Source of the DNA: Mobula birostris
Taxonomy: Eukaryota
DNA: 64,000 nt
Assembly (NCBI RefSeq): GCF_030028105.1
Contig: NC_092381.1
Coordinates: 42,323,474-42,387,473 of the forward strand
Direction: 5' to 3'
A program made the translations under genes and the position numbers. The notes beneath the pieces were generated by a model. The model searched no databases. It was not told where the DNA came from and was given only the letters and a program-made list of their open reading frames with translations. This document shows, piece by piece, positions 6,124-33,039 of the stretch; the first letter of the stretch is position 1, and each line of letters begins with the position of its first letter.

Positions 6124-6124
6124 C

Positions 6125-7814: not shown

Positions 7815-8270
7815 AAAGACATAGAGCACTACAACACAGAAACAGGCCCTTTGGCCCAACTAGTCTATGCCCAGACTGGTTTTCTACTTCATCCCATCGA
7901 CCTGCACCCAGAGCATAGCCCTTCACACCTCTCTTATTCATGTACTGTATCTGTCCAAACTCCTCTTAAATATTGTAATTGAACCTGCATCTACCACTTC
8001 TGCTCTGGCAATTTGTTCCACATTCACACCACACTCTGAGTGATTACATTCACCCCTCAGATTCCCCATAAAATACGAAACAATGACCTCCAGTTCTACT
8101 CACCCGAGGATGAAAACCTTATTTGCAGCCCCCCGCCCCCATTGTGTATACCTCTACCATCCCCCTTCATTGTCCTGCACTATGGAATAAAGTCCTAACC
8201 TATTCAACCTTTCCTTGTAACTCAGGACCTCAAGTCCCAGCAACATCCTTGTAAAAATTTCTCTGCAATG
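7815..8270 (-). mobile_element. CR1 LINE 3' end fragment
   Basis: acatagagcactac..acaggccctt.ggccca tail and RT C-terminal remnant. Confidence 0.65.
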
Positions 8271-8384
8271 AGATAGTGGGAAAACATGTGCCATTCAGGT
8301 AGCTCATGGAATATGTAAATACATTGAGATAATGACAGAAACCAGATTGCAGAATATAATCAAGCTTATTGTCGTTCAACCATA

Positions 8385-10750
8385 CAAGTACGATAGATAA
8401 AGGAGATGCGGTGGATGTTGTATACCTGGACTTTCAGAAAGCCTTTGACAAAGGGTGTCACACGAGGCTGCTTACCAAGTTAACAGCCCATGGTATTACA
8501 GGAAAGTTACTAACATGGTTAGAGCACTGGCTGATTGGAAGAAGGCAGTGTGTGGGAATAAAAGGATCCTTGCAACACACATCAAAGTTGCTGGTGAACG
8601 CAGCAAGCCAGGCAGCATCTCTAGGAAGAGGTACAGTCAACGTTTCAGGCCGAGACCCTTTGTCAGGACTAACTGAAGACAGAGCTAGTAAGAGATTTGA
8701 AAGGGGGAGGGGGAAGGGGAGATCCGAAATGATAGAAGACAGGAGGGGGAGGGATGGAGTAAAGAGCTGGACAGTTGATTGACAAAAGAGATATGAGATG
8801 ATCATGGGACACAAAAAGGGTATGAGAGGATCATGGGACAGGAGGCCCAGGGAGAAGGAAAAGGGGGAGGGGTGAAGCCCAGAGGATGGGCAAGGGGTAT
8901 AGTGAGGGGGACAGAGGGAGAAAAAGGAGAGAGAGCAAATGAATGTGTGTATATAAATAAATAACGGATGGGGTACGAGGGGGAGGTGGGGCATTAGTGG
9001 AAGTTTGAGAAGTCAATGTTCATGCCAGACAGAATATAAGGTGTTGTTCCTCCAACCTGAATGAGGCCTTGGATAGACATGTCAGAATGGGAATGGGATG
9101 TGGAATTAAAATGTGTGGCCACTGGGAGATCCTGCTTTCTCTGGCGGACAGAGCGTAGGCGTTCAGCAAAATGATCTCCCAGTCTGCGTCGGGTCTTGCC
9201 AATATATAGAGGCCACATTGGGAGCACCGGACGCAGTATATCACCCCAGTCGACTCACAGGTGAAGTGTCGCCTCACCTGGAAGGACTGTCTGGGGCCCT
9301 GAATGGTGGTAAGGGAGGAAGTGTAAGGGCATGTGTAGATGTGTAGCACTTGTTCCGCTTACACGGATAAGTACCAGGAGGGAGATCGGTGGGGAGGGAT
9401 GCAGGGTATGAATGGACAAGGGAGTCGCGTAGGGAGCGATCCCTGTGGAAAGTGGGGGGGGGGGGGGGAGGGAAAAATATGCTTAGCGGTGGGATCCCGT
9501 TGGAGGTGGCGGAAGTTACGGAGAATATGTTGGACCCAGAGGCTGGTGGGGTGGTAGGTGAGGACCAGGGGAACCCTATTCCTAGTGGGGTGGCAGGAGG
9601 ATGGAGTGAGAGCAGACATGCGTGAAAAGGGGAAGATGCATTTGAGAGCAGAGTTGATGGTGGAGGAAGGGAAGTCCCTTTCTTTAAAAAAGGAGGACAT
9701 CTCCCTCGTCCTGGAATGAAAAGCCTCGTCCTGAGAGCAGAAAAGGATCCTTGTCTAGTTGGCTGCCAGTAATTAGAGGTGTTCTGCAGGCGTCGATGTT
9801 GGGGCCACTTCTTTTTATGCCGTATATCAATGAAATAGATGGTTTTGTTGCCAGGTTTGCAGATTATACGAAGATTGGTGGAGGGGCAGGTAGTGTTGAG
9901 AAAACAGTTACAATGCAGAAGGACTTAGACAGATTAGGAGAATGGGCAAGAAAGTGGCAAATTAAATACAATGTTGGAAAATGCATGGTCATGCACTTTT
10001 GTTAGCAGAAATAAATGTGCAGAGTATTTTCTAAACGGGGAGAAAATCCAGGAATCTGAGATGCAGAGGGACTTGAGAGTCCTTGTGCAGAACACCCTGA
10101 AGGTTAATGTGCAGGTTGAGTTGGTGGTGAAGACAAATGCAATGTTAGCATTAATTTCAAGAGGTCTAGAATACAAGAGCAGGGATGTGATGCTGAAGCT
10201 TTATAAGGCACTGGTGAGACCTCACCTTGTGTATTGTGTACAGTTTTGGGCCCTTCATCTTAGAAAAGATGTGCTGGCATTGGAGAGCATTCAGAGGAGG
10301 TTCACAAGGACGATTCCAGGAATGAAAGAGTTATCATACGAGGAATGTTTGATGGCTCTGGATCTGTACTCACTGAAATTTCGAACGATGAGGGGGGATC
10401 TTATTGAAACCTTTTGAATGTTGAAAGGCCTAGACAGAGTAAATGTGGAAAGGATGTTTCCCATGGTGGGAGAGACTAGGACAAGAGGGCGCAGCCTCAG
10501 GATAGAGGGGCACCCTTTCAAAACAGAGGTGTGGAGAAATTTCCTTAGCCAAAGGGTGGTAAATTTGTGAAATTTGTTGCCACAGGCAGCTGCGGAGGCC
10601 AAGTCGTTGGGTGTATTTAAGGCAAAGATTGATAAGGTCTTGATTGGACATGACATTAAAGGTTACAGGGAGAAGGCTGGGAAATGAAAAAGGATTGGCC
10701 ATGATTGAATGGCAGAGCAGACTCCATGGGCCAGATGTCTTATGGTCTTA
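8385..10750 (+). mobile_element. CR1 LINE (RT half), interrupted by a Penelope-like insertion
   Basis: VDVVYLDFQKAFDK, LGPLLF, FADYTKIGG, RGLEYKSRDVMLKLYKALVRPHL; tail (tcttatgg)n. Confidence 0.9.
8573..9740 (-). mobile_element. Penelope-like retroelement, 5'-truncated (GIY-YIG endonuclease end)
   Basis: [50 protein letters not shown]; flanked by direct repeat AAAAGGATCCTTG (8560-8572, 9741-9753). Confidence 0.9.
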
Positions 10751-11700
10751 TGCACATGTATACTGCCAAATGAGACAATGCTCCTCCAGACCAACTGCAC
10801 TACACAGTACATATAACTTGTACACACAACACAAGGTAATATTACCACAAATAACATGAGCATATATAACACAAATTACAAACAGTATATAGTTACTGTC
10901 ACTTCATACATGATGAGACTTGGGGGGTGGTGGTAGGGAGTTTAAGATACTTACGGCCTGGGGAAAGGAGCTGTTTCCCATCCTAACTCTAATGCCACCA
11001 GCAACTTTTATGTGTGTTGCTTGCATTTCCAGCATCTGCAGAATTCCTGTTGTTTGCCTAATGCCACCATGCCTAACGCCTGGTGGTAGAGGGTCAAAGA
11101 TGGGAGGGATCATTGACAATGGCAAGGGCCCTGCATCCACCGTGCTCCTGATACTATCTCTAATGGATGGAAGAGACACCCAGGTGACCTCTCAGCAAGC
11201 AAGAGAGCATCTTCAAAAGCTGGAAATCCCAGCAACTCACACAAGCAGCATTTAGGAAATGAGTACAACACACACAGACCGATGGAGGAACTCAGCAGGC
11301 CTCCCCAGCTTTTTTCTACTCCAGCCCTGCCAAAGAATTTCAAAACATCGACCGTACTCTTTTCCTAAATGCTGCCTGGCCTGCTGAGTTCCTGCAGCAT
11401 TTTGTGTATGTTGACCTCTCAGTAAATCTTTGAAGATGGTTGCCGTCAGATATCTTGTAATTCTCGTACCAGCTGGTCAGGACACGCTAGATGGTACTGT
11501 TATAATATAGCAGTTAGCTTAAAAAATGATAAAATACAGATTTCTTCTCTCTCTCTCTGAAAATATCCACTACCACACACTTCCAAGAACAACATTCGTC
11601 TCACTATTAACCGTCCCTTTTCCTTTCTATGTGGTTTTAAAGGTGCATTTCCTCACAGACTGACCAGAGAAACCAACCTTCGCTCGCCGTTCTCACTAAC

Positions 11701-11750: not shown

Positions 11751-11758
11751 ACCTTCTG

Positions 11759-11973
11759 CACGCGCCCCGACCCCCCACCCCGGCCACCGCCCCTCCACGC
11801 GCCCCGACCCCCCACTCCGGCCACCGCCCCTCCACGCGTCCCGACCCCCCCACCCCGGCCACCGCCCCTCCACGCGCCCCGACCCCCCCACTCCGGCCAC
11901 CGCCCCTCCACGCGCCCCGACCCCCCCACCCCGGCCACCGCCCCTCCACGCGCCCCGACCCCCCCCCCCCGGC
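11759..11973. repeat. GC-rich minisatellite, 37-38 bp unit, about 5.7 copies
   Basis: Unit cacgcgccccgacccccc(c)acYccggccaccgcccctc repeated in tandem. Confidence 0.95.
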
Positions 11974-12199: not shown

Positions 12200-12269
12200 G
12201 GCTGCGCGGAGTGAGAGTGACGCTGTCGCGCTGGAGAAGGAGGGGTGAGGACCTGGAGGCGCAACGTTG
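12200..12269 (+). other. AKR1A1: Probable non-coding exon 1 of AKR1A1
   Basis: Donor TG|GTAAGG at 12269/12270 downstream of a CCAAT box in the CpG island; the first coding exon has an acceptor 6 nt before ATG; 5' boundary approximate. Confidence 0.6.
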
Positions 12270-14222
12270 GTAAGGCGCTTTTGTGTGGATGCTATAACTA
12301 CCTTTATATGTTTCTCAAGTCTGAAAAATGTATACTGTTCGATTTAATGATAAGCCTTTCTGTTCAATACACTCTGTGTACGATTGAGGTGCATCATTAT
12401 TACAGACGCTCTTCTGGGCTGTACCAGAAAATCCAGGCGGACCCAAGGTGTATTGCAAGTTTCCTTGGGAAAAGCGCTGCATCCCTTTTGACTCCTGAGA
12501 ATCCTGGGCGCGTGTTTGAACGTAGCGAGGAGCTTTTGGTTTCCTTTAAGAAATTGTTACTTAGAGAGGATAGAAGCTGGAGGCGATTCTGCCACCAGAC
12601 CGTCTACCCAACTGCCTGTTCATCTGTGAAAGGGACTGGTTCCCTCATTGGTCTCGGGCATCTCAAATCCTCGAAGGTGGTCTTGGACGCAAGTCGTCAT
12701 AATTCCTGAGCGCCTAGCAAAGAATATTACATTTTGAGCTGCTGACGCTGCAAATCCAAAACTAAACCAGAGAAAATGGCAGAAGTACTCAGCAAGTTAA
12801 ACAGTGTTAATGGAGATTAAAGCAGTCAATGGTTCAGGTTAAAGATCCTTCATCACAATCCACAGATTTTACTTGATTTTTGAGCACTTCAATTTTTGGC
12901 ATTCTTTAATTTGATTTCAAAAAATTAAATAGTATTAGATGCCATGTAAAAGTGCTTCGGCGAAGTCAAGCTATGTCCTGATGTGATCATACTTGAGAAA
13001 TTGATTTATGCTTCAGAGAAGTCTCTTTGGTCAAAATGAATTGCAGTCACATCTTGACTACCCCAAATCTAGTTTTAATGTTGAGCACTTTTACACTTAG
13101 TATATCCAAATTTGATCAAAACTGAAATATATTTTCTGCTTCCCTTTTTCAGTGTGCCATTTTATCAATCCTAGGAATGCACTGAGATAATTTATGACAA
13201 TAGCAGGATGTTTCTGAGTATTTTCAAAAACACTGTGTCCTTTTTATAGGATTTCAGTTATTTGAAGCTGCACGGGAATTGGTTTGATAATCTGCAACAG
13301 AATAAAAGTCTAGTAAGAAATGAATGTAGCAAAATAATTTTAACTCTGCATGTCCATGAAATCTATCCTCCTGAATATTATTTATCCTAGAGAAGGGAAA
13401 TTAGAAAGTTGGAGATGCCGTTCATTCACAAGTATTTTGTTTCAATTTTGAAGGGGCAACATGCAAAGGATTTTAACCCAAATTTTAAGGCCAAAGCAAA
13501 TCTGCAGAAACTACTGTAAGGTAAAACATAGGAATGTACCTTTATTGCAAGTATTTGGTACAAAAGAATTTGTATGAATAGTTTACTTGTTCAGGCTTTA
13601 AGCCCATCCTGTATAGTTTGTGGCAAAATAAAAAAACACTGGGAGGTTCTTGTGGCCCAGACCATTCCTTTCAGTAATCCATTCAGGTTTTTACCAGTAC
13701 ACCTCGGTCCAATACTTTTTATTTTGAAAAACAACTTCCTTAATGGAAAAATTATTTTATTTTCTGTTACACAAATAATAACTTCTTCCCTCAATATAAT
13801 GAAGGTAAATAGCAGCACGTAGTACAGAGAAACTTTTGCTCAAATGAGATCTTATTGACATCCAATTTGCAGTAATTTTGCTGCACAGTAACCAGGAGAA
13901 GCCGTAAAATTTATTGGGCTGGATTGGGGGTTACCAACCTTTTTTTATGCCGTGGATCCCTACCATTAACTGAGGGGTCCGTGGGCCCCCAGATCAGGAA
14001 CCCCAGGAACTAGATCGTTCTAACACAGGTTGTAACCTCAGGGAATTTCTGCTTAACTTCCATTTGAATTACACTCCTGTGCTTTGCAGCAAGGAATTAT
14101 GATACACATTAGACATTGGTTGCCACCACATCCAAGCAACTGTTCTGCTGCTGGACTCAGCATTGGCACTTAGACCCAAAGACTGAGAAAATTGTAGAAA
14201 CACGCAACAGGTTTGGCAGCAT

Positions 14223-14432
14223 ACAGAGGTGCTAGAAAGTTTGTGAACCCTCTAGAATTTTCCCTTTCTGCGTAAATATGACTTAAAATGTGATCAGATC
14301 TTCATTTTCCTGGAAACTAGATAAAGAGAACCCAATTAAGTAAACAACACCAAAAGCATTATACTTTTTCCATTTATTGAGAAAAATGATCCACTATTCA
14401 TGTATTTTTGGGAAAAGTATGTGAACCTCTAG
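14223..14432 (+). mobile_element. Tc1-like left IR/DR fragment
   Basis: TA-CAG..GAAAGTTTGTGAACCC and inner repeat GAAAAGTATGTGAACC. Confidence 0.6.
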
Positions 14433-14730
14433 GGTATTTAACCTGCAACCTTAATTCTGTTTCTCTTCATGGATGCTGCCTGGCCTGCTGAGTCTCTTCA
14501 GTATTTTCTCTTCTAGTTTCAGATTTCCAGCATCTGCAGATTTCTTTCATTTGCAGAGTATATAGTGTATGCGTCTCCAAAATGATTTGCGTGGTTTTCT
14601 TTACCAACTAATGTATGTATTATTAATAGTACATTGATAGTATTAATACATGGATTTAAATGGTTTCTGTAATAATTGTCATTTAAGATTTTCAGAATTT
14701 TAGGAACGTTCTCTCTTGTTTTAGGATAAA

Positions 14731-14817
14731 ATGTCTACTTCTGATTATGTTCTGCTCAACACTGGACAAAAGATGCCTCTCATTGGGCTGGGGACATGGA
14801 AAAGTAGACCTGATGAG
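14731..14817 (+). CDS. AKR1A1: AKR1A1 coding exon 1
   Basis: [29 protein letters not shown]. Confidence 0.93.
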
Positions 14818-17800
14818 GTAATTTGTCTAATTGTCCAATTACATTGACAAAATTAGATTAACCTTACCTTGAGTCGCCCAAAGGTGTTCCTTTTATGTCT
14901 GTTTTGTTATATTGTCCTTCAACAGGCCCCTTATTTTGTGTATGACTTCATCCAGAGACTTGTAGCTTGAGGATTTGGAATTGTCATGGATCACTTGAGT
15001 CCAAACTTAAATCCAAGCCATTTAGGAAGACAGAAGTAGGGCATTGACAGTACAGCATAGTGCCTACACTTCAGCAAACAATATTGGGCCAACCTTTTAA
15101 TGCAAGCAGCTAATCTTTCCCTTCCACTTAGGTCTCCATTTTTTTCATCCAAATGTCTATTTGAAAGCCTTAAATGTCCCTAATGAATCTGCCTCTGCCA
15201 TCACACCTGACAGTGCACTTTTCATTCCCCTGGCAGTGCATTACATGTACTTGCCACTCTGTAAAAATTTTTAAAAAAGCCTTCCTCTTAAATCCGCCCC
15301 CCCCCCCCCAATTTTCCCCTCCAAAATCACCTTTTTAAAAAAAGATGTCCTGTTGTATTAGCCATTGCCGTCATGGAAAAAAGCACTGGCTGTTAGTTCT
15401 ATCTATGCCTCTTGTACATCTCTATCAAGCCTCTTCTCATCCTAATTCACTCCAAAGAGAAAAGACCTAGCTATTCAACCTTTCCCTACAAGGCAGGCTG
15501 GCTAACATCTGGGTAAATTTCCTCCAAAGACATGTTAACATGTACACAATAGAACGACTCCAAAGCTGAATTTTGATTTGAAGAGTACACATGTAGCACG
15601 TCTCCATTCCAGGGATGACTAAGTATTATCTCTCTTTAGTCCATAACTTTTCTCAACCAAGGTCTTTCACATTGTTACTTAAGCATGTGTACCTCAAATT
15701 CTTAAGGATGCAAGGGATTATCACCTTCCAGTTTTCAGCAATAGTGACTGACTTGGGTGTGGGTGGCAGTTTGGAAATGCAGATGCCTTTTTAAAGATGT
15801 GATCTGACACAAAAAAATGAACTAGGTAAAAGTCTAAGCACATTATCATGTGAACTTTCTCAACTGGTTACTCAATCTCTCTTGTCATAGAGGGATCAGG
15901 CCCCTCTGCGACGCCCCAGACGCGTTCTCTCGAGCCTGGTGGCAAGCAAGCGCAATGGATCATACAAGCGACTCTCAGACAGGCATAGCCCTGGGAAGAA
16001 CCCAGGCAGGGCCAGACAGTGTCAATGATCAATGTGTCCTGCAATTCACATTAATTCTCGCAGATGAGAATCCATCAGTATTTGGAATGTTTTACTTAAG
16101 GTCCTGGCTAATGCCCCCTTTGGCCCCTGTTCTGGGGCATACCCATCTTCTGCCATCAATGTAATGGCACTAAACCAAGCTGCAGTTACCTTTGGCAAAG
16201 TATCCTTGGAATTAACTAGGTAATTACTCAAATACTATTTTGCATCCACACTCAGCATTTACTGTTAACTAAAAGGCAGTGAGTACGTGGAGATTTTCAC
16301 TATTTTTGTATCATACAAAAATTAACATTCTATATGCTACTATTTTTACAATGCATCCTTGTGTTTTTTCAGTTAGTCTTTGCAGCTAACTTACAGGAAC
16401 GATCAACTTTGTAAATACTCATGGTATATCGATATATTCTGATGTGCTTCAAACAATTATTTATGAATCTTTAATAATAAAATAATTGTTCATTTAGTAT
16501 ATTAAACTGGCAATTCTTATTTATCAGGAGATAAAATGGGATGCTTAATATTATAATACATCTCCATACATTAGTGTTATGGTTTGTTTCCTCCCAAGTC
16601 AGTGCCAAAACTTAACTGTTTTTTGTCATTATCTCTTCCTATTCTCTTACATTTATTCAAAAATAGTCACTAGTATGCGTTAAGAATATTACTCTGTATC
16701 CTTGTTTTTACTAATAACAAAATGTTGGAAATATCAGAAATTGTGCCGGCTGGCAAAGTACCAGTAAAGCTGACTGGCAAAATAACATACTGTTGAAAAC
16801 AGGAAACTGTCTAGTTTCTGTTTCTTGCTTTTGCATTTTTTCTGGTATTTGCAATTTTCATATGGAAATTTCTTTCAAAAAAAAAGAACTTGCCGGCAAT
16901 TTGGTATAATTGAGTGCAAAAGATCACTTCCAAGAGAAAATCTGGAGATGCTGAAAATCCAAGGAACATGCACAAAAACTGTGGGAACTCAACAGGCCAG
17001 GTAGCATTTGTGTAATAGAGTAAACAGTTAATGTTTCAAGCCGAGACCCTTCAACAGAACTCCTGCCCCCTCTCCTGCCATATTAACATTTTCCCTTTTA
17101 GGAATTCTTGCAGATCAGGTATGCAGAGTAAATATCAGTCAGCTGTGCCTCAAAGTCCTTTAGCACCATCTAGTTAGAATTTTCCATTTTCCACTCCAAG
17201 ACGTACTTGAAAATTTATTCATCTTAACTTAATTGAAGTTGCCGAAACTTGGCTGCAAACACTAACTTAATTGTCAATGTCAGCTGAATTTAAACTTTCT
17301 TATAAAGGTGACAATTCATTGTCTAATGATCTAACAATTTTTGCATTGATTTTGTTTTTTAACGAAAGAAAATATCTACTTGAGTGCTGAAATTAGCATT
17401 GATTAATGGGGTGGGTATTTATCTCTGGTATAGAGTTTTGAACTCCAGTTCCTTTGACTCCTGCCATAGACTGCATGAAACTTATTTGACATGTCTTAGC
17501 TAACTGCTGAAGAAAGAGTTTACTTCAGTTCAAAAATTCCTGTTCAGTAAAAGAAATTATTCTTTTAGCCAGAGGTTACATAGGTTCAAAATTATTTTTT
17601 TATATCCCCAATTCCTCAGAGTGACCACCAAATTGCTCAGTAAACTGAGGAAACTATTAAGAATTATGCAAATTTTATTTAAACTATTAATGCATATTAA
17701 TTTGGGCACTCAACGTCAGTAAGATGAAAGAGCTGATTGTGGACTTCAGGCAGGGTAAGACGAAGGAACACATACCAATCCTCATAGAGGGATCAGAAGT

Positions 17801-20800
17801 GGAGAGAGTGAGCAGTTTCAAGTTCCTGGGTGTCAGTATCTCTGAGGATCTAACCTGGTCCCAACATATCGATGTAGTTATAAAGAAGGCAAGGCAGCGG
17901 CTATACTTCATTAGGAGTTTGAAGAGAATTGGTATGTCAACAAATAAACTCAAAAACTTCTATAGATGTACCGTGGAGAGCATTCTGGTAGGCTGCATCA
18001 CTGTCTGGTATGGGGGGTGGGGTGGTGGTCTACTGCACAGGACCAAAAGAAGCTGCAGAAGGTTGTAAATTTAGTCTGTTCCATCTTGGGTACTAGCCTA
18101 CAAAGTACCCAGGACATCTTCAAGGAGCGGTGTCTCAGAAAGGCAGCGTTCATTGTAAAGGACCTCCAGCACCCAGGGCATGCCCTTTTCTCACTGTTAC
18201 CATCAGGTAGGAGGTACCCAGAAGCCTGAAGGCTCACACTCAGCGATTCAGGAACAGGTTCTTCTCCTCTGTCATCCAATTCCTAAATGGACATTGAATC
18301 TTTGGACACTACCTCACTTTTTTAATATATAGTATTTCTGTTTTTTGCACAATTTTTAATCTATTCAATATACGTATGCTGTAATTGGTTGTTATTTATT
18401 TATGATTATTTTATTTTGTTTTTTTTCTTCTATATTATGTATTGCATTGAACTGCTGCTAAGTTAACAAACTTCATGTCACATGCTGGTGATATGAGCAG
18501 AGCTCACTAAAGTCACAGTGTGGAATACTTTAGTAATGCATACTGTCAGCATTAATCAGTTAAGATTAACTGAAGAGTTATTGAGGAGATACATTGTCAC
18601 AAGAAAAGATGCTGGAAATCCAAAGCAGCGCGCACAAAATGGGAGTCCTGATGAAGGGTCTCTGCCTGAAATGTCGACTGTTTACTCTTTTCCGTAGATG
18701 CTGCTTAGCCAGTTGAGTTCCTCCAGCATTTTGTTTGTTGTAAGATATAATCTCTGTCTGCTCTAAGCAACAAGCAAATTTCAGACAAATATTCCTACGG
18801 CAGCCAAAGCTTTTTGTTCGCTGTACCAACTTTTCATGGTGTACTTGAATAATTTTTAACTGCCCAAAATATTAAGGTGACACGTTTATTTCACTGACTT
18901 GTAGTTGAGTGAACTTGATCAAGAATGCAGTGATGGTATGCTAACCAGATAAAATATGTACTTTCTCTGAGGAAGATAGGAGGGAAAGAGTATTTAGTTT
19001 TATTAATAGACTGACAACTACGCTGCTCCAGAGTGCAATAGGAGGTCATTCTTGCCCTCCGCCATTAGGTCCTATAATAAATCAACCTATTGCCGGGGAG
19101 GCGATGACCCCCTCCTGTTGGACTATTTGAAGGAGCTTATTTTCTATTTTTTCTTACTTTTCTTCTAATATTTGTATATCTATGCATTCATAATGCTATT
19201 GTGACACTAATTTCCTTCAGGATCAACAAAGAATCTGTCTATTTCTAACTTAATGACCTAGTCATGCTCTTCCCTTCCAGCACTTGCCAAGAATCTACAT
19301 CCGTTGTCTCCCCATTACCTATTCTCACCTGTTCCAGATAAAGAAACCCCTAACCCTACCTTCATAGTATTTTGACAGGCTTACAGGAGTACATTAAAGT
19401 AGCCAATTCCTGAATGGACATGAAAGCTTTTTTTTTTGTTTAATCATTTTTAATGGTCTCTGACATTCAGATAACATTTTAAAGTAAAATTGAAAAAAAT
19501 AAATTTTTTATTAAAAATGATCGGTTAAAACACTAAAATAATCTCCCTTGAAATTAATGTTGTTTTGGATCCTTTACTCTAACTTGGTGGAGGACCTAAG
19601 AAGCATATAGTGTTTTTCTTTCCCTGCCACATCAGTCCAGCAAAAGAGGCTTTGTCAGGTGTAGGACCGCTGGTCAATTATATTCAAAAATATGTCTACA
19701 GGAATACTGGACTAGCTATTGCTTAAAAGGTAGATATTATTTATTATGAATATCCACCTCATTCTAGTGGACTTATTGTGAACAATCCGAGAAAAATGTT
19801 GAGCCTAAAAACAGTACTGAAACACTTATGGTGAAAGTTGTTTATGTTGTGTATGAATGAATGACAAAACCCAGCACCATTGCTCTGTGATGTTTGTGTG
19901 TACATTAGTAAATTTGTTTTACGTGGGTGTCTCCTTTTTTTACAATACATTGTTTATGCATTGAATAATCGAGATCCACTCATCCAGTTTTCCTTTGATT
20001 TAAAATCTGTAGTCCCCCAAGGGATTTTTTTTCTTGAATTTTCTAGAATGGTAGATTTTTAGAACATAGAACATAGAATAGTACAGCATAATACAGGCCC
20101 TTCGGCCCACAATGTTGTGCCGACCCTTAAACCCTGCCTCCCATATAACCCCCCACCTTAAATTCCTCCATATACCTGTGAAGAATACTATATTAGTACT
20201 CCTTTATGGGGATGTGTATCGGTGAGGTTATGTTCAACAGCTATCAATTAAAGCAATAAGCAATACCAGCGGAGAAGAAATCCGAAACTTCGGTATTTTG
20301 TTCTGCCATTCTTCCTTAAGACAATAATTCAATTATCTCCAGACCAATGTTGCCTTCTATTGAATTTAGTCAATAAGAGATATAAAAATGGCTGCAAATG
20401 ACTGTTACAGCCTCTGTATCATCTTTGCTCTGTATACAATGTCACTGTCAAGAAATGTCTTGCTTCTTTAGAGTGATAAAGTGGACAAATTTTTGAGATG
20501 GTAATTGATCCTCAATATTCATATTCATGCTGAAAGAGAACTTGATTGTAGACAATGATTATGTTTGCTCTTTTGCTAAGGTAAAAACAGCTATCCTGAA
20601 TGCATTAAAGAGTGGTTATCGTCATGTGGACTGTGCTACAGTGTACAATAATGAAGCTGAAATTGGAGACCTCTTTAAAGAAGTAGTTGGCGTTGACAAG
20701 GTATGATCTAAGAAATTAAATGTTGCGTGGATATGAATCACATTGCACAAATTTGTGTTTGGAAGTATCCTTCAAAAAATGACATGCAAGAATCCATCTT

Positions 20801-23800
20801 CTAGAATAAGTGTAACGAGCCATGTACAATGTCTTTCCCCATTAAAGTATATAGATAGAACTCTGCAATTGAATGTATCACTGCAATTATTTAATTGCAA
20901 ATTTGTGGGTCCAGGTTAAAAATCAGATAATAATTTAACTTGAGGATTTTCATATTATTAAGAATCCTTTTTGGAATTGGTTTATTATGGTCAAATGTAC
21001 CGAAATACAGTGAAAAGTTTGTTCATACAGATCCAATCATGATACAGTGCATGGAAGTAGTACGGGGTAAAATAATGCAGAATAAAGAATTTAACAGCTA
21101 TAGTGAAAGTGCTGGTGAACAATAAGGTGCAATATCATAATGAGGTAGGGTTCATCTTCCTGAACCAGTGAACAATTTAATTGTCTTTTAACAGTGGGGT
21201 AGAAACTATACTTGAGTTGGTCTTGGATCGTCTGCCTGGATGAGGTCCTTGATTATCCTGGCTGCTCTACTGAGATAGCAAGAAATGTATAGAAGGTCTA
21301 TGGAGGGGAGGTTGGTATCTGTAATTTTCTTGAGCTGTGTTCATAGCTATCTACAATTTCATGCAGCTGCAATTACAGGCAGAACAGTTGCTATTCCAAT
21401 GCTGTTATACATCCAGATAAAATGTTTTCTCTAGTGCATGGATTAAAAATTGGTAATAGTTAATGGGGACATGAGGAATTTCTTTAGCCTCCAAAGGAAG
21501 TAGAGGTAGTGATGAGTTTTCCTGACTGTGACGTCAACATGGTGGAACCAGGGCAGGCTATTGGTGATGTTCACTCCTAGGAAGTTGAAATTTCAACACT
21601 GTTGATATGGACAGGAGCATGTGCACACCCCCTTTCTGAAGTCACTGACCAGCCCTTTTGTCTTCCTGACATTAAGGAAATGATTGTTGTCATGACACCA
21701 TATTATTAAGCTCTCTATATCCTTCCTATACACTGTCTTGTCATTATTTCAGCTATGGCCCACTGGCAGTATTGTCTGCAAATTTGTAGATAGAATTAGA
21801 GCACAATCTAGCTATACAGTCACAAGTGTACAGGGAGCAGAATAGGGGCTGAGAGGTTTTAACATTGTGGAGCACCAGTGTTTAAAATAGTTGTGTTGTG
21901 GGAGTTGCTACTTCATCTTACTGATGGTCAGGAAGTCAAGGATACAGTTGCAATTGTTGATTCTCAGGGTCAAAGTGTGTATGCAGAATACATCTCTGAG
22001 ATTTGTCTTCTCCAGATGGCCATAAAATACAGTAAGATCATAGAAGTAGTTGAAAGAAAAGACATCAATCCCCCCCACACATGAAAAGAAAAAGAAACAA
22101 AAACTCACAAAACCCAAACCCCTCCAACCCCTCCCTCGCACAAAAACTAATGTCACTCATACAGAGAAACAACAATAAGAACGTCAAACCCCAAACCCTC
22201 ACCCACCAATTGGCAACGAGAAAGAATAGGCAAGAATGTGAAAAAATAGCATTGAAGAGGCCATTATGAACTATAGTTGGGTTGAGCTACAGTCCAATCC
22301 ATATATCTCAGAATTTTCATGGCATCTCCGGAGCCTTGGGGAGAGCCTCAACTGAATCCTCATGACAGTGGATGTCCATCCATGGCCGCCTCCTTCGGGC
22401 CGAAATGTTAACTGTACTCTTTTCCATAGATGCTGCCAGGCCTGCTGAGTTCCTCCAACATTTTATGTTGTGTTGATTTGTAGTGGTTTATTTTAGCTGG
22501 AAAAATAACTTGACTGAAAGCTTGTTCCTGGTCTTGTACAAAAAAAAAGAAAGGCTGTTCTATTCCACAACAAATATTTCATGTTATTTTATTAGTGAAA
22601 ATGACATGACAGTATTAAATATTTTGGTTGCATTGCAACTTTTGCAAGTAAAATATTCAAAATGATTGGACTTTTTGATTCTTAGCATTCAGATACAGTC
22701 GGCTCTCCTTATCCACGAGTTCCGCATGTGCGAATTCAACCAACCGCGAATTGAGAAAACCTGGAAGTTCTCTTCCANNNNNNNNNNNNNNNNNNNNNNN
22801 NNNNNNNNNNNNNNNNNNNNNNNNNNNNNNNNNNNNNNNNNNNNNNNNNNNNNNNNNNNNNNNNNNNNNNNNNNNNNNNNNNNNNNNNNNNNNNNNNNNN
22901 NNNNNNNNNNNNNNNNNNNNNNNNNNNNNNNNNNNNNNNNNNNNNNNNNCGAAAAAAAAACTAAGTTCTCTTAGTAAGTAAGTCGGAACAGGTACATCCA
23001 GTATTATTTAGTGTCAGTTAGTCAAACGTTTGTCTTAGTATATAGTATATATTTTACCTTTCTATGCATGTAAAATACGCCGGGCTGAAACGTATGTTTC
23101 AGAGTTCAATCCAGTGACACATCACTCCCGAGCGCGCTGTCCATCCCTGCTGGGTTGATATGGAGGATGAAAACCCCAAAACCCAATATTAAACCACTGT
23201 GTTGCTTACTAATAATTGTAGTTTTAATCGGCCAGGGCCTTTCTCATTTTATCCTTTAAAATTATTCCGATCGTTGACCGACTGTAGCCTAATGCTTTTC
23301 CAATGACCGATGGCGTTTCACCTCTTTCTGATCACTTTATTAGTTCCACTTTATTTTCAATCGTGATCGTGACTATTTTCGTGAACAGAAACACTGCGGA
23401 TTCAGAGCTCCACCGCCATGTCCTAATGCCCACCAAACTGAGACAGGTTAAATAAGGTCCAGGGTTCTGCTGGGTCCTAAGGTCCACCACATTGAGTCAG
23501 GTCGATAAGGGACTTGAGCATCCGCGTTTTTTGGTATCCGCGAGGGGATCTGGAACCAATCCCTCGTGGGTAAGGAGGGCCGACTGTATTTGACAATATG
23601 AAATTGATTGGATATCCAAACTAACCAAGGGATTTAGCTTGTTTTATCACATACATTTACTTTTGCAGATTGTGAAACGTGAAGAACTTTTTGTAACCTC
23701 CAAGCTGTGGAATAATAAGCATCATCCTGAAGATGTGGAAGCTGCTTGTCGCAAATCTTTGGAAGACCTGAAGCTCACTTACCTGGATTTATACTTGATC

Positions 23801-26800
23801 CATTGGCCTTATGCGTTTCAGTAAAGTATAGTTTATATCTTAATTTTTTGTGCAGTTTGGAGGATTTTGTTTTTGGAAAAATGTGATTTTAATTTTGTAA
23901 ATTGCATACGGATGAAAATTTTATTTTTTCCAAATTGTAACATGCTCCTTGCCTTTTAAAATTTTCATAGGATTTTATCAAAATGGTTTTGTATTCATTG
24001 TATCTCCAGTGATGAATTTTTGAATGTTTTAAATAACTATAATTTTAATAAGATGCAAGTTTTCTATTTGTTGGTGTCTAAATTGTGTGTGCTTCATGTT
24101 TTGAACAATAAATTTTATTTGCAGAAAAGGTGACAACCCCTTCCCAGTGAATCCTGATGGAACAATACAGTATGATTATATTGATTATAAGGAAACTTGG
24201 AAAGCTATGGAGAAATTAGTAGAAAAGGGCTTGGTGAAAGCTATTGGCCTCTCAAACTTCAACAGTCGACAGATAGATGACGTTTTTGCTGCAGCTACTA
24301 TCAAGCCAGCAGTGCTGCAGGTTAGAAATTTTACTTTAATTGAAGTGCTTGCCAGTGAATTAGTTGTATATAACCTGTATCACTTCTGCAAAATCATAGA
24401 TATTTCGATGTTTTAACTCTTTAACAGTCAGACAAAATCATTACTATCGCACATCTGAATAATGTATTATGAAATCAATAGAACAAAGAAACTGCTTGAA
24501 CTAAATACGCAGGTACACATTGCTGTTAATTATTTTTCATACAAAGTGCCTATGACCAATAATTTCCATAATGAACTAATTTTGATGGTTTGTCGACATT
24601 TGAACAAAAAATCTGGTAAGTGGACTTCATTTTCTTGCTAAGGGCATTTGACAAGTAATCTTGCATTTAAATCAAAATGTCTTTAGATCCAACATCACAA
24701 GTCCTGATTACATTATTCATAGCATTTCTTTCTAAGGCATTTCATTCTGTCTTACACAGGTAGAGTGTCATCCATACTTGGCTCAGAATGAACTGATTGG
24801 GCATTGCCAGAAACTTGGATTGAAAGTGACTGCCTATAGTCCACTTGGTTCCTTTAATCGTACGTGGAAAGACACAGATGAACCAGTGTTACTTGAAGAT
24901 TCTGGTATTAAAGCAATAGCCAATAAACATGGAAAATCACCCGCTCAAGTGCTGCTTAGGTACAAGAGCTTAAAATCAGTAAACATGAGGCTTTAAATAA
25001 GTTAGATCAATAAACACAGCACAAAATAAATAACACATTAATTTATTTATTATAAGAAACAAGAATGACCGTCAGGAAGAATTTATATATTTTTGGTGAT
25101 TCCAGAAGATTTGAATAGTTATCAGGCATCAAAGAGAAAGTGACAACTATATCGATTCACATCAACATGGATATGTAGCTGTGGAGTCTGCCTATGAGAG
25201 AAATTTTCCCCCTCTCCAAATGCAATTTTTAAAATTGCTAATGCTACTTGTTCTTGTGGTTATTTTCTCCACATTCTTTCTGCAGAAGTGCATCCATTTA
25301 TGTGTTGAGAATATTTTTGATACATAAAAGCCAGGTTACCATCTGAGAGCTTGGAACTGTGAAAACACTAAAAACTTTGCCCAAAGAGCCCTGCTGCTTG
25401 ACTTCCAAATAAGGTTTCGGGCCATCAATGATTCTTTTCTGCAGCATGAAAGTCTCAAAAGATTCTATAATTACAGACACATTGATTCCAAAAGAATCCT
25501 GTCAGCTCTTAAAATGTTTCTGTCATGATCAGAACTAATTATTTTAGATGTGCACTAACTGTTTGAATAAAATGTGCCCATGCTGGGGGGGTTGGTGGGG
25601 GATGGGGAGATAACATGTCTAGAAATTTGAATTCCCATCTCAGTAGGGAATGGGGATTTAAATAAAGTCTTTCTATGTTTTTAACATAAAACCATAGAAA
25701 TTTGGAGTAGGACTTTGGCCTTTGAGCCTGTTCCATTTTACGATATGATCATGGTTGATTATCCCAATTCTAAACCCTGTTCTTGATTTCTCCTCATATT
25801 CTTTGATCTCTTTGGCCATTAGGACCATGTCTAAAACTTAAATGTATTCAATTTAAGTATTCAGTCAGAAGCTGACTGCTGTAGAGAATCCATAGGGTCA
25901 CCAGTATCTGGGTGAATAAGTTCCTCCTTGTAAGTCCAAAATAATCTGTCCTGTATCCTTAGGTTCAGCACCTTAGTTTTAAGCTTTCATGCTTTTTGAA
26001 AACATCCTCTTTGCATCTTGTCTGTCCAGTCCAGTCAGAATTTTCTAAGTTTCAATGTTCTCATTTTTCTAAACTCCTGACACTCAGCCTAATCACCCCA
26101 ATCTCTCTTCACTAGTCAGTCCTGCTATCCTAGAATAGTCTTCTGAATGTTTGCTACTCAGCTTCCACACCAAGCACATCCTTCCTTGGGTAAGGAAATC
26201 TGAACTTCTAAAACCCATAACACAAAATGCTGCCGGACCTGCTGAGTTCCTCCATCATTTTGTGTATTGCTTGGATTTCCAGCATCTGCAGATTTTCTCT
26301 TGTTTCTGAAAATTCATTCCTGGTGCAAAGTGAGGTACCATTAAAAGTATCTCCTGATAACAATGTTATATGCTCACTGCTATGAAATCCTTCATAACTT
26401 TAATAGTACTAGGTATCCTCACCCACCTCTATACATATAACTAGGGTCCCTCAAAGTTAGAATCATAATATAATTAGAAATTTCCTGTTTCCTCCAACTC
26501 TTCACATCCTTCCAAGTGCCCACATTTATACCAGTTGTGGCCAAAACAGTATTTTGTAAAGTTCATCGTGGCTTCTTGCTGTCATATTTTCTGCCTCTAT
26601 TAATAAAGCCTAGGATCCCACCTGTTTTTTATTTTAATCATTTCCTCAGCCTACTCTATTAAGAACTACAAATACTTCTAAATTTCTTTTTTTCTTGCAC
26701 TTGCTTAAAAAATATGCCCTCTAAATTGTATAGCCTCGTTCTCCAACCAAAATGTATCATAACATTTGTCGGTATTCTGATTTCATTTTCTATCGATTCC

Positions 26801-29800
26801 TCCTTGACGTCTATGGTCATCCACCTCAATTCACTTGGCTTCCATATCTGCAGGTAACACAAAATTTGCAAGTTGTCCTTTATCGGCTCACCATAATAGA
26901 TACACCTGCACGTTATTGCAAATATCCAATCAGTCAATCAAGTGGCAGCAGCTCAATGCATAAAAGCATGCAGACATTGTTGTTCAGACCAAACATCAGA
27001 ATGGGGAAGAAAGGTGCTTTTGACCAAGGAATGATTGTTGGTGCCAAATGGAGTGGTTTGAGTATATCAAAAACTGCTGATTTCTTTGGATTTTCATGCA
27101 CAACAATCTCCAGAGTTTACAGAGAATGGTGTGAAAAACAAAAAATATCCAGTGAGTGGCAGTTCTGTGGGCAAAAACACCTTGTTAATGAGAGGCCAGA
27201 GGATGGCCAGACTGATTCAAACTGACAAGACGACAGTAGCTCAAGTAACCACGCATTACAGCAGTGGCTGTGCAGAAGAGCATCTCTATACACACAGCAC
27301 TTCAAACCTTGAAGGGGATGTGGTACAGCAGCAGAAGACCATGAACATTCATTCAATAGCTATTAGGATAAATAGATACCTAATAAAGTAGCTACTGTGT
27401 ATATACTAATTCTACTCATTAATGTATCAGATCTGCAGTAGGTCCAGCACTAATCCCTCTGTAACTCCATTGTATGTTTTCCTTTAGTCCGAAAACAACC
27501 TTTCATCGCTGCTTCCTATTACAGTTTACTGTATGTGCTGCTAGAGCCCCGTTTATTCCCTGTCCTTGTAACTTTGTTTTTGTTATTTGCCTTGTCAGCT
27601 TCAATCATCTCATATAAAACCTTAAAGTTAGTTAGACACAAATTGCCTTCCATCAAACCCATATCCTTCCGAGTAACTGGTAATTTTGCCCTAATTTATG
27701 CTCCTAAACTTTTCCCCACCATGTTATGTGTCATCAACTTGTCTCACATCACTGAACATCTCCCTACATCCTATAAGGTCTGCAAGTTTCCATTCTTCAG
27801 GCACCAAGATTGTTACTAGGGCTTCTGCAATTCCTCCCTTTTCTCCAAAGTAATTTATCCACCTAAATACAAAGAGGCTTCTAATATGGCTCTCAATATT
27901 CAGCTTAACAAAAATCTCTCTTGCATCATTAAAGATTCAGCTGCAGCAACTTTTATCACATTTTTACCACTTATTGGGAATGAGCAGGCTTTCTTAGGTC
28001 CTTGACACAGAATATTATTCTACATATCTTAATGTGTATAAAGGATTACATTTTGAATTTGGAATTTTTTTACAAAAAGAATACTTTTTATCCAGAAAGC
28101 CTCTGTGCAACCTTTGCAATCTTTTTCAAATGTAGATGTCTGTTGTCTTCCTTTATGATTGACTAATGAATTTTGGTTAATGAATAAGCTTTTTTTGTAT
28201 CCATTAAAATATTTCTCTCTATAGGTGGCAGGTACAGCGTGGGGTAGTAGCCATTCCCAAGAGTGTCAATGCAGAACGAATTGCACAGAACCTGCAGGTA
28301 ACTTGATACTTAGCCAGTGAGTGTCGCTCATTATTTCATGACTAGTAAATGTTAGGATTGAAAATCCAATGGTTTTAGAAAGTTTTTTTTTGACGCAGTA
28401 ATCCCTACTGTCTTCTGAAAGTTGATTAACAGTGAGATGATTTATTCAGCTCTTGTTAATTGATTCATGCAGTGGAAAATTTAAAATCTTTATCGTTTGT
28501 AGCAACCAATAGTCTCCTGAATGATTTTGCTTTTTTCCAGAGTTGAATAAAGTATATCCAGACTTTGCTCATGTGCCACTTAGAATATTAGTATCATAGC
28601 TTTGCATTTCACCTGTTTGAGCAACTCTCTCTGGGATGCAAGATGATTTCTACCTATATTTCACTTTTATCATTGTAATTCAATACTTGCGTTTGTTTCC
28701 TACTAACCAACCCTATTTTCCATGTGAGAAATGGTTACAACTGAAGCAGAGCACGTATTAAATAATCACACTTAAAGGCAATGGCTTGCTCTAGGTGTGG
28801 TGTCTACTGTTCTATGTACCAAAGCTTCTGGCTACCCACCCTGCACCTCAAGAATGCTCTGGACTTGATCTGAGATGTCCCTGACCCTGGCACCTGGAAG
28901 GCAACATACTATCCTGGAGTATCTGTGTCATCCACAGAAATGCCTGTCTGTTCCCCTAACTATTGCATTCCATATAACCACTATTCTCCTCTTCTCCTTT
29001 TTCTTCTTCTGAGCCACAGAGCCAGATTCAGTGCCAGAGAGCTGGTTGCTCCAGTTTTCCCCTGGTAGGTCCTTTTTCGTGCCCCTTCCTGTCCCCACCA
29101 ACAATATCCAAAGCAGTATACTTATTATTCAGGGAATTGCCACTCTGTACTGTCTGCCTGTTTTCTTTCCTTCTGACAGTCACCCAGCAACCTGCCTCCT
29201 GCAACTTGGATGTGACTACCCCGTCGCTCTTGTCTATCAGCTTCTCCTCCTGAATGATTTGTAGGTCATCCTGCTCCAGTTCCCTAACATGGTCTGCAAG
29301 GAGCTGCAGACGAATGCACTTCTCACAGGTGTAGTCATCAGGGACACTAGACTTGTGGCATCACACAAGAGGAACACAACGGTGTCCTGGGTTCCATTTT
29401 CACTGCTCGATCTGTGCAATAGTAAAGAAGGACAAACTTGCAGAAACTCAACTCAACCTCCAATTCTTCTCAGTGAAGCCTCTTGAGGCGAACTCTTCAC
29501 TCTAACTATGTCCACTCTAACCCTAGTGCATCTGTCCTCACCCATGATTCCTTGTCCATTCATCAGTGGTCAAGGATGGGTGGACAATGGAATCATGGAG
29601 AGAATCCTTGTGGAAAGCAGAGAATGTGGGGGGGGTAAAGATGTGTTTGGTAGGATGCCATAAGTTGTGGAGAATGATATACCAAATGTGGAGGCTCATA
29701 GGGTGGTAGATAAGGACAAGAAGAATTCTGTCCCTTTGCGGGAACATTCTAATTCCATTCCTCATTCCCATTACGATATGTTGGTCCATGGTTTCACCTA

Positions 29801-31064: not shown

Positions 31065-31227
31065 TGATGGTGGGATGAGCCATTGCTGCCTCAGTATTTG
31101 TTGTATCGTTTGGTAAACCAATTCTGCTCATAAAATTGAATGTGTTGGCATTATATAGAAGGAACATGTAGTCACTCTTTAAGATATTCGTCTGCCAGTA
31201 ATTCATTCAAAAATTTAAATGTTTGGA

Positions 31228-32410: not shown

Positions 32411-33039
32411 CATGTGGCATAATAACTAAAAATGCTGGAAACACTTAACAGATCAGGCAACTCCTAGCAGATCTGTGAAAAGAGAAATTGTTACGGTTTC
32501 AGATACAGGACCCTTCATCTAGGAAAAAAAACAAGTTAGTTTTCAGTATCAAAGAAGGTGGAGGAGGGATTGAGAGAAGAACATGTTATAATAAGGATAG
32601 GGCGAGTCCAGCAGCTGAGGTTCATCATGTTTTTTTTATCTGTATTATTAATGACGGGGCTATAGGACATGCTCAGAAAAAGCATTATTCTATATGAATA
32701 GAGTAAGAAAAACAGCCAATATGATGACGGACAGAAATGACCAATTTTAATACACACAAAAAAGTGGTAGAATTCAATATTAAATCATGAGGGTTGAAGT
32801 GTGCATAAATGGAAGATTAGATGGTGTTCCTAAAGCTAGCACAGGGCCTCATTTTAACAATGCAGGAGTCTCAGAGCTTAAGTGGTACGGAGAAGTAAAG
32901 TGGCATGCAACTGGGATTTCAGAGTCAATCCTGTGGACTGAATGCTAGAGGGCTGCAAAGTGATCGCCCAGTCTGATTTGGTTACTCCACTCCAGGCGAG
33001 ACCATATGCTGAACACCCCATGGAGTCCACGAGATCAGA

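What the first reader, a model, noticed from the sequence alone, without database searches (positions are those of the whole stretch)
18644..18679. Dispersed minimal hammerhead-ribozyme motifs carried by a Penelope-like family
Seen: AGTC-CTGATGA-AGGG.TCTCTG.CCT-GAAA-TGTC-GACT. This is a type I hammerhead layout: helix I AGTC/GACT, core CUGAUGA, short helix II, GAAA, a near-absent helix III (ACGT palindrome in the consensus) and a GUC cleavage triplet. The same motif lies in the 3' tail of both long PLE copies (8635-8670 and about 45922-45957, minus strand). Decayed versions occur at about 12822-12856, 17025-17060, 30206-30240, 32490-32520, 44988-45020, 56193-56218 and 61767-61797. Established: PLE pseudo-LTRs encode minimal hammerheads with a palindromic helix III that are thought to cleave as dimers. 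Inference: about ten relics in 64 kb point to a very large self-cleaving-RNA repeat family. Most differences fit CpG decay of a consensus CTGAYGAAGGGTCTCGGCCCGAAACGTCGACT. The best copy is sense within the AKR1A1 pre-mRNA.
Basis: partly seen in the sequence, partly recalled or inferred. Interest (0 to 1): 0.8.

Follow-up and report, generated by a model that had tools for sequence, protein, structure and literature searches.

The report
Hammerhead-headed Penelope retroelement stubs
The motif is a real minimal hammerhead-ribozyme sequence of a known kind, carried by a Penelope-like jumping gene with roughly half a million relic copies in this genome; the copy in the AKR1A1 intron is likely inert, and many short copies begin at the motif's first base rather than at its predicted cut site, which suggests the element's RNA starts there.

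Summary
Confirmed, but a known kind. 18644-18679 is a minimal type I hammerhead, the only descriptor match in the window (shuffle mean 0.005). It heads a ~100-nt stub of a Neptune/Nematis-type Penelope-like element (PLE), sense in AKR1A1 intron 2. Two exact 28-nt patterns give 40,006 genomic hits (controls 0); sampling suggests ~0.5 million relics, against 4,000-9,000 motifs reported for coelacanth and Xenopus. Corrections: both long window copies have lost core G8; the focal copy has lost its ACGU palindrome and has no intact sense partner; copies decay nearly neutrally, about half by CpG loss, with no real covariation. Added here: 20 of 99 tail-picked young copies start at positions 0 to +3 of the ribozyme (~35x background) and none at the cut site; genome-wide counts give roughly 25:2:1 for +1, cut site and control. 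An older endonuclease-linked subfamily amplified with an A6C core. Likely reading: the transcript begins at helix I, internal priming copies only this leader, and cleavage is not needed for stubs. The scan noted the same 5' clustering earlier in other genomes. Neither cleavage nor RNA ends were tested.

The parts
18644..18679 (+). Minimal type I hammerhead motif, core intact; G10.1-U11.1 wobble; palindrome ACGT changed to ATGT; predicted cut 18675|18676
   Evidence: helices I and II form with probability about 0.6 in the isolated 38-mer, but flank-inclusive MFE folds differ
18680..18741 (+). Rest of the pLTR 3' module up to the first (short) tail end; older subfamily A2
   Evidence: A2 copies elsewhere carry the PLE endonuclease upstream in 13 of 70 cases
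18601..18643 (-). Inverted tail piece joined to +1 of the hammerhead, apparently through an AG microhomology; only a degenerate possible TSD
8573..9740 (-). 5'-truncated young PLE copy (subfamily B) with 13-bp TSD, inserted in another LINE-like element; hammerhead 8635-8670 with G8>A
45820..48130 (-). 5'-truncated young PLE copy with broken RT and GIY-YIG frames and 11-bp TSD; hammerhead 45922-45957 with U4>C and G8>A
29540..30337 (+). Older PLE 3' remnant in AKR1A1 intron 7 (start approximate): endonuclease relic plus hammerhead 30205-30240 with A6C core and GAAA>GCAA
16931..17061 (-). Decayed stub, antisense in AKR1A1 intron 2; hammerhead ~17026-17061
12772..12860 (-). Decayed stub, antisense in AKR1A1 intron 1
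22395..22476 (+).
11328..11414 (+).
32427..32520 (-). Very decayed stub downstream of the AKR1A1 stop
   Evidence: E 0.007
44897..45069 (.). Head-to-head pair of stubs; forward hammerhead relic 44988-45020
56101..56218 (-). Stub starting at about +11 of the hammerhead
61710..61797 (-). Very decayed stub; weak support
12200..31070 (+). Host gene AKR1A1: putative non-coding exon ending ~12268, coding exons ~14725-14817, ~20590-20710, 23669-23820, 24125-24320, 24760-24959, ~28225-28300, 30820-30906, ~31000-31065 (approximate)

Best explanation
The motif is the minimal hammerhead of a Neptune/Nematis-type Penelope-like retrotransposon, left here as a likely inert ~100-nt stub in AKR1A1 intron 2, and it was likely made when the element's reverse transcriptase primed just inside the 5' leader of an uncut RNA that begins at the first base of helix I. 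Shown: full elements are pLTR-ORF-pLTR units of ~3.5 kb with the hammerhead in both pLTRs, ~130 nt before the predicted ATG; 3' ends fall mostly at two sites ~40 nt apart (the PLE tail); 5' junctions pile up at 0 to +3 and not at the cut site; copies decay nearly neutrally. Inferred: +1 is the transcription start of an internal promoter (context YYAGTCC fits the initiator pattern YYANWYY, recalled); priming at the leader's tail sites runs off after 100-140 nt; the cDNA end then joins the target or folds back by 1-4-nt microhomology, giving stubs and inverted pairs. In master elements the ribozyme would cut only as a dimer or with the element's protein. Stub formation does not need cutting, and at least one lineage amplified with an A6C core. 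Identity and inertness about 0.9; RNA 5' end at +1 about 0.55.
For: Element anatomy: (RVT_1, GIY-YIG, linker CX4CXXC, CCHH). Family size. Junctions: 20 of 99 tail-picked young copies at 0..+3, 18 at +4..+21, 0 at +22..+33; hazard 0.075/nt vs 0.001-0.003 elsewhere. 7 of 61 copies without an inverted partner also start at 0..+3, all 7 with a TSD. Genome-wide: 1,733 hits with a non-T before +1 (29 of 30 inspected are real junctions), 141 with a purine before the cut site (8 of 30 real, 3 of them fold-backs from a +1 end), 27 at control +36 (19 real); normalised ~3,160: 250: 125. Many 5'UTR-picked copies end 100-300 nt into the element, i.e. primed in the leader. Frangieh 2024 (PMC11167929, main text parts 1-2 read): internal priming at two tail sites, hammerhead protein-assisted, core mutants do not block insertion, no RNA-seq ends at the cut site. 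Decay: G8 20/245, like other CpG sites; T, C and G core positions mutate like non-core. A6C: 15 of 39 in one spacer-defined subfamily vs 8 of 328 elsewhere, p 4e-11; 8 of 29 A6C copies have endonuclease sequence upstream.
Against: No RNA end was observed: only assembled contigs of guessed-RNA runs were available. An extra cap-derived G is not shown: first 100 hits read by eye gave G 42, C 39, A 19, many G templated by an inverted partner; extras between TSD and +1 vary. 13 of the 20 hot-spot junctions have an inverted partner, so fold-back biochemistry may contribute. The same place looks like a branch point plus 3' splice site. In 52 copies picked by the 5'UTR the ends are more spread: 4 at 0..+3, 2 at +33/+34, 8 reaching the upstream limit of the reference. 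Core A positions mutate less than non-core A (6/1225 vs 17/1225, p 0.03, one of four tests; non-core columns may include subfamily differences). Cut-and-religated circles would leave no mark at the cut site, so the missing peak does not show the ribozyme is unused.
Confidence: 0.72

Rival explanations
1. There is no RNA end at +1. Reverse transcriptase pauses or is released on leaving the hammerhead hairpin or entering the upstream pyrimidine tract, and the cDNA folds back on its own helix I complement (AGTC/GACT).
For: 13 of 20 hot-spot junctions have inverted partners. Exact fold-backs through helix I occur (about 10 of the first 100, read by eye; 3 of 30 classified). Intact copies are predicted to fold as a stable rod in which core GAYG pairs with CGUC.
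Against: A structural block should stop RT at the 3' foot of the hairpin (+33 to +37), where there is no peak. 7 non-inverted, TSD-flanked copies also start at 0..+3. The boundary is sharp upstream (none at -1 to -4) and tails off downstream. About half of copies read straight through.
Confidence: 0.22
2. The hot spot is a 3' splice site: branch point TACT(A/C)AC, polypyrimidine tract and the AG of helix I, as in Drosophila virilis Penelope where an intron ends at helix I. Stubs would derive from spliced or splicing-intermediate RNA.
For: The upstream sequence has that shape in all subfamilies. Cervera 2014 (PMC4209133, parts 1-2 read) places the D. virilis intron end at helix I; Schostak 2008 (PMC2377424, passages) maps that intron 46 nt after the start.
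Against: Splicing predicts junctions at +3 preceded by a constant or exonic sequence. The peak is at +1, TSDs abut it within 0-6 nt, and no shared upstream exon is seen. No GT..AG joint into +3 among the joints shown (15 shown and 151 hidden; 2 shown).
Confidence: 0.1
3. In master elements both pLTR hammerheads cut as a dimer and the unit-length RNA is religated into a circle that templates longer-than-unit copies (Cervera model). This concerns long copies and is compatible with the best explanation for stubs.
For: The motif is kept across subfamilies whose flanks diverge. Partial tandems exist (L104, L107; 8 of 52). Religation leaves no scar at +33.
Against: No direct evidence here. An endonuclease-linked A6C lineage and an older A9C group (7 of 14 vs 5 of 353) amplified. 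Core mutants do not block insertion in vitro (PMC11167929). Naiad PLEs thrive without hammerheads (PMC8557442, passages).
Confidence: 0.25
4. The 18644 copy is an active or co-opted intronic ribozyme that cuts AKR1A1 pre-mRNA and tunes its expression.
For: It is sense, has an intact core and both helices, and is the only such copy in the window.
Against: 18 of 89 sampled copies are equally intact, so one in ten is expected by chance. Its palindrome is lost (self-duplex +2.6 vs -1.7 kcal/mol). No sense partner in the gene has an intact core. Single min-HHRs did not cleave in vitro (PMC4209133). Orthologous conservation was not tested.
Confidence: 0.03

Closest known systems
Minimal hammerheads (min-HHR) in pLTRs of metazoan PLEs (Cervera and De la Pena 2014, PMC4209133)
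   Same: Type I; CUGANGA plus one unpaired base; G10.1 start of helix II; GAAA-C-G-U-C with palindromic ACGU and no helix III loop; 3-5 bp helix I; both pLTRs of full elements; mostly single dispersed copies.
   Different: Helix II only 4 bp. Copy number 10-100 times the 4,000 (coelacanth) and 9,000 (Xenopus) reported, though counted differently. No shark, skate or chimaera name found in 2 of 3 supplement files searched. The young lineage has G10.1-U11.1 in 185 of 245 copies; an older lineage has A6C.
Poseidon PLE of Anolis (PAc; Frangieh et al. 2024, PMC11167929)
   Same: Hammerhead near the start of the ORF-bearing region; two internal priming sites giving the tail; no evidence of ends at the cut site.
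   Different: Different clade (linker zinc finger here). The ATG lies ~130 nt after the ribozyme rather than in stem II. The parts read do not report a pile-up of 5' junctions at helix I.
Non-LTR retrozymes of animals (bioRxiv 10.64898/2026.07.22.740005, part 1 and passages)
   Same: Short non-coding PLE-derived units with a type I hammerhead; reported in one chondrichthyan.
   Different: Retrozymes are tandem arrays. These stubs are dispersed single or head-to-head copies with TSDs and variable ends, i.e. truncated PLE insertions.
A6C hammerhead of phage Bcep176 (Naghdi et al. 2020, PMC7151607, passages and Table 1)
   Same: CUGCYGA core.
   Different: There a single phage ribozyme with Mn2+ preference (A6C cut a model ribozyme's rate from 0.3 to 3.6e-6 per min at 0.3 mM Mg2+); here a vertebrate retroelement lineage with an estimated tens of thousands of copies.

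Membership tests
Metazoan PLE minimal hammerhead | Core C3-U4-G5-A6-N7-G8-A9, G12-A13-A14, A15.1-U16.1, H17 | tested here: met
   Met in the focal copy and 189 of 245 young copies; not met in either long window copy
Metazoan PLE minimal hammerhead | Helices I and II can form; unpaired base between 9 and 10.1 | tested here: met
   Pair probabilities 0.5-0.66 in the focal copy, 0.85-1.0 in intact copies; A at that place in 87 of 89
Metazoan PLE minimal hammerhead | Palindromic 15.1-16.1 segment for dimer helix III | tested here: met
   ACGT is the family majority; lost in the focal copy (ATGT)
Metazoan PLE minimal hammerhead | G10.1-C11.1 pair | tested here: inconclusive
   G-C in 108 and G-U in 214 of 367 copies; G-U is fixed in most young copies and present in the focal copy
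Metazoan PLE minimal hammerhead | Covariation in helices | tested here: not met
   Among 367 copies of this one superfamily, double changes: 7 at the CpG pair, 1 and 1 elsewhere; U-G to U-A in 23. Expected for neutrally decaying copies of near-identical masters.
Metazoan PLE minimal hammerhead | Self-cleavage at NUH as dimer or with protein | not testable with these tools
   No raw RNA reads
EN+ Penelope-like element | Single ORF with RT and C-terminal GIY-YIG | tested here: met
   1064-codon natural frame with RVT_1 E 4e-5 and GIY-YIG E 8e-4, both below Pfam cut-offs; window copy
EN+ Penelope-like element | pLTR partial tandem, inverted 5'-truncated partners, 30-40 bp tail | tested here: met
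Neptune/Nematis clades | CX2-5CXXC linker zinc finger and CCHH in the endonuclease (PMC8557442) | tested here: met
   CX4CXXC before the GIY-YIG, CXXC and two His within it
Neptune (versus Nematis) | RT phylogeny with reference elements | not tested
   No reference sequences held; Neptune favoured only from the vertebrate host (recalled)
Non-LTR retrozyme | Tandem arrays of hammerhead-bearing units | tested here: not met
   Window copies and the 99 tail-picked copies are single, inverted pairs or PLE partial tandems; arrays elsewhere in the genome not searched
Rfam hammerhead families | Covariance-model match | tested here: not met
   No match at E up to 10; the motif lacks helix III and loop 1

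The most novel reading that the evidence does not exclude
In this vertebrate PLE the hammerhead is the very first 36 nt of the transcript. The same bases serve as initiator and internal promoter, the ribozyme is uncut on the templates that transpose, priming in the leader has scattered well over 100,000 leader-only stubs, and catalysis is dispensable, since an endonuclease-encoding lineage with an A6C core amplified to tens of thousands of copies. The motif would then be kept mainly as a promoter, cap-removal or translation switch rather than as a processing step.
Probability: 0.4. Interest if true: 0.62.

Novelty: new member of a known kind. Interest (0 to 1): 0.4.

Why it matters
What PLE hammerheads do in vivo is an open question (PMC8557442, PMC11167929). 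A family this large works as a natural experiment. Its junctions can be mapped to the base and show a pile-up at the ribozyme's first nucleotide and little or none at its cut site, which matches the in vitro finding that uncut RNA is the template. It yields sharp, cheap predictions (cap at +1; A6C lineage slow in Mg2+). It also puts an estimated 60,000-160,000 core-intact hammerhead motifs in one vertebrate genome, far above published counts. The single copy in AKR1A1 matters little.

Tried and rejected
Rfam scan: no hammerhead hit. Thermodynamic z-scores of five copies were uninformative (-0.3 to 0.5). Search for RNA evidence: no RNA holder listed as such; 20 runs were contigs with RNA status guessed or unknown. 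Two layings could not show ends, strand or level; their loose ends before +1 partly reflect other subfamilies, so they were not used as evidence. Cap-G test inconclusive. Cut-site pile-up rejected as a strong signal: at most about 2x control; 0 of 99 alone is no deficit, since 0.6 are expected. A raw lower mutation rate in core columns (1.1% vs 2.0%) mostly disappeared on base matching, except for A. No clean TSD for the focal stub. Lunse et al. 2017 was not held; it is known here only through a review passage (PMC6765202), so whether it lists cartilaginous-fish examples is unchecked. One of three supplement files of PMC4209133 could not be searched, and bioRxiv supplements were closed. Literature searches found no paper describing this family's hammerhead, a junction pile-up at helix I, or an A6C PLE lineage; most subscription papers are not in the library. 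The Perreault 2011 text was not read.

Full report
Numbering. Positions in the motif are counted from the A of the 5' strand of helix I (+1 = window 18644); the predicted cut lies between +32 and +33. Core names (C3, A6, G8) follow standard hammerhead numbering (recalled; as used in PMC7151607).

1. Observation. The quoted sequence is at 18644-18679. It is the single hit of a structure-only minimal-hammerhead descriptor in the window; shuffles give 0.005 on average. A profile from 67 natural copies recovers 9 of the 10 listed places and several more pieces, and none in reversed DNA; 61767-61797 is weak. Rfam has no matching model. Three details need correcting. Both long copies have lost G8, and one also U4 and a helix I pair. 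The focal copy is the only one of 10 aligned window copies with an intact core, but its palindrome reads ATGT. CpG-type transitions explain 40 of 70 window differences and 276 of 534 in sampled copies.

2. Host context. The genome is 4.01 Gb; a cartilaginous fish is inferred from recalled repeat content and is not shown by any search. The surrounding gene is an aldehyde reductase of AKR1A1 type, on the + strand, with exons mapped by translation. The focal copy is sense in the intron between ~14817 and ~20590. It is a ~100-nt stub with an inverted tail piece at 18601-18643 joined at +1. Other sense pieces in the gene (14443, 22395, 26214, 30205) lack an intact core.

3. The element. The RT fragment of the window's long copy has 42,486 first-look candidates in the genome. 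Twenty long-frame loci, chosen for frame length, all have the motif downstream of the ORF; L104 and L107 have it in both flanks ~3.5 kb apart. L104 shows pLTR-ORF-pLTR with the motif ~130 nt before the predicted ATG. [quoted passage not shown] The focal stub belongs to an older subfamily than the long window copies; that subfamily is also a PLE end, since 13 of 70 copies have endonuclease sequence within 700 nt upstream.

4. Size. Exact 28-nt patterns give 9,134 (C11.1 form) and 30,872 (U11.1 form), with reversed controls 0. Tail patterns give 55,762 and 13,277. In 72 stretches of 10 kb taken at round coordinates on large contigs there are 133 hits, 89 covering the motif, 28 with an intact core, 18 with core plus both helices and 9 also with ACGT. 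Scaled: ~0.50 million relics (Poisson 0.40-0.61), ~100,000 with core and helices (59,000-159,000), ~50,000 complete. Counts are overdispersed (variance 3.4, mean 1.8), so true intervals are wider. Cervera 2014 reported ~4,000 and ~9,000 min-HHRs in coelacanth and Xenopus by descriptor search.

5. Evolution of copies. In 245 young copies from loci not picked by a ribozyme pattern, G8 is changed in 20, like other CpG positions (17-28). Base-matched, T, C and G core positions behave like non-core; A positions are lower (6/1225 vs 17/1225, p 0.03). Compensatory pairs are absent apart from CpG doubles. Between subfamilies the motif is kept while upstream and spacer sequences diverge; N7 and loop II vary and helix II pair 4 alternates U-G and U-A. 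Two lineages carry core changes. A6C occurs in 15 of 39 copies of one spacer class vs 8 of 328 others (p 4e-11), and A9C in 7 of 14 vs 5 of 353. Genome-wide, non-A letters at A6 in otherwise perfect motifs were C 47, G 36, T 17 in the first 100 of 199 (read by eye). C at this place is in 11 of 89 sampled copies, i.e. of the order of 50,000. Eight of 29 A6C copies have endonuclease sequence upstream, including window 30205. A6C slowed a model hammerhead ~100,000-fold at 0.3 mM Mg2+ but little at 10 mM or in Mn2+ (PMC7151607).

6. Junctions. The first 100 genomic hits of a tail-only pattern were fetched, giving 99 distinct copies after removing 2 duplicate rows. 5' junctions: 4 at +34..+54, 0 at +22..+33, 18 at +4..+21, 20 at 0..+3, 9 at -1..-61, the rest spread upstream. 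Hazard per base is 0.075 at 0..+3 against 0.001-0.003 in other bins (p ~1e-24 against 0.002). An independent set of 30 young copies from the sampled stretches had 4 at +1..+3. These 99 all come from the first 5.5 Mb of one contig, so a genome-wide test followed. Non-T before +1: 1,733 hits, 29 of 30 inspected real junctions. Purine before +33: 141 hits, 8 of 30 real, 3 of these fold-backs of a cDNA ending at +1. Purine before control +36: 27 hits, 19 real. Normalised for pattern prevalence (32, 15, 15 of 99) and using a by-eye purine share of 0.61, this is ~3,160: 250: 125. In 52 copies picked by the 5'UTR the ends are broader, with 4 at 0..+3 and 2 at +33/+34, and many stop 100-300 nt into the element. 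3' ends fall mostly at two sites ~40 nt apart.

7. Mechanism. Frangieh 2024 showed in vitro that a PLE primes at two internal tail sites near the ORF start, that its hammerhead cuts only with protein, and that core mutants insert normally. Applied here (inference): an RNA starting at +1 and primed at the leader's tail gives exactly the 100-140-nt stubs seen, whereas priming at the 3' pLTR gives long copies that read through an uncut ribozyme. +1 is a YA dinucleotide in an initiator-like context in all subfamilies (pattern recalled), and D. virilis Penelope has an internal promoter (PMC2377424). A cap-derived G could not be shown. Intact monomers are predicted to fold into a rod with the core paired to the cleavage strand (open-core probability about 0.001-0.02), which fits low unaided activity. 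Rivals are RT pausing with fold-back, a 3' splice site at helix I, cut-and-religated circles for long copies, and a co-opted intronic ribozyme; each is weighed in its field.

8. Comparison and verdict. The motif fits the min-HHR consensus of Cervera 2014 (supplement file 2, part 2 read) and the element fits EN+ PLE structure, so this is a new member of a known kind. The searches named found no paper on this family, on the +1 pile-up or on an A6C lineage. The scan's own notes record the same 5' clustering and fold-back position in other genomes (e1-7858714, e1-9963876); these are unchecked AI notes seen after my analysis and are not counted as evidence. Cleavage and RNA ends remain untested. 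Interest 0.4: ordinary as a single motif, useful as a large natural data set on an open question.

Noticed in passing
window 15969-16103 (-): Decayed 5.8S rRNA-like sequence (27 bits, below the gathering score of 42) in AKR1A1 intron 2; likely a pseudogene fragment.
   Followed up: no
window 11756-11973: GC-rich tandem repeat (~37/74-nt period) just upstream of the putative AKR1A1 first exon.
   Followed up: no
window 100-351 and 1427-1675: 250-bp inverted repeats at 91% identity around a hAT-like transposase remnant (811-1353; weak Dimer_Tnp_hAT hit).
   Followed up: no
window 57662-57747 and 38520-38580: Two near-perfect hairpins (MITE-like), matched only weakly to plant miRNA models.
   Followed up: no
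window 59461-62325: NASP-like exons (SHNi-TPR hit) on the + strand downstream of AKR1A1.
   Followed up: no
window 4561-5382 (+): Coiled-coil ORF resembling an L1-type ORF1, split by one stop (family name recalled).
   Followed up: no
motif positions +24/+25 across the family: The young lineage fixed a G10.1-U11.1 wobble (185 of 245), apparently by CpG decay in a master element.
   Followed up: partly
L104 positions about -350 to -240 relative to +1: A second, weaker cluster of 5' junctions around the ORF stop and pLTR start; could mark another start site.
   Followed up: no
G000, one search list: C17>G outnumbers C17>A among point changes at the cleavage nucleotide in otherwise intact copies; may be a small sub-lineage or a CpG transversion bias.
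   Followed up: no
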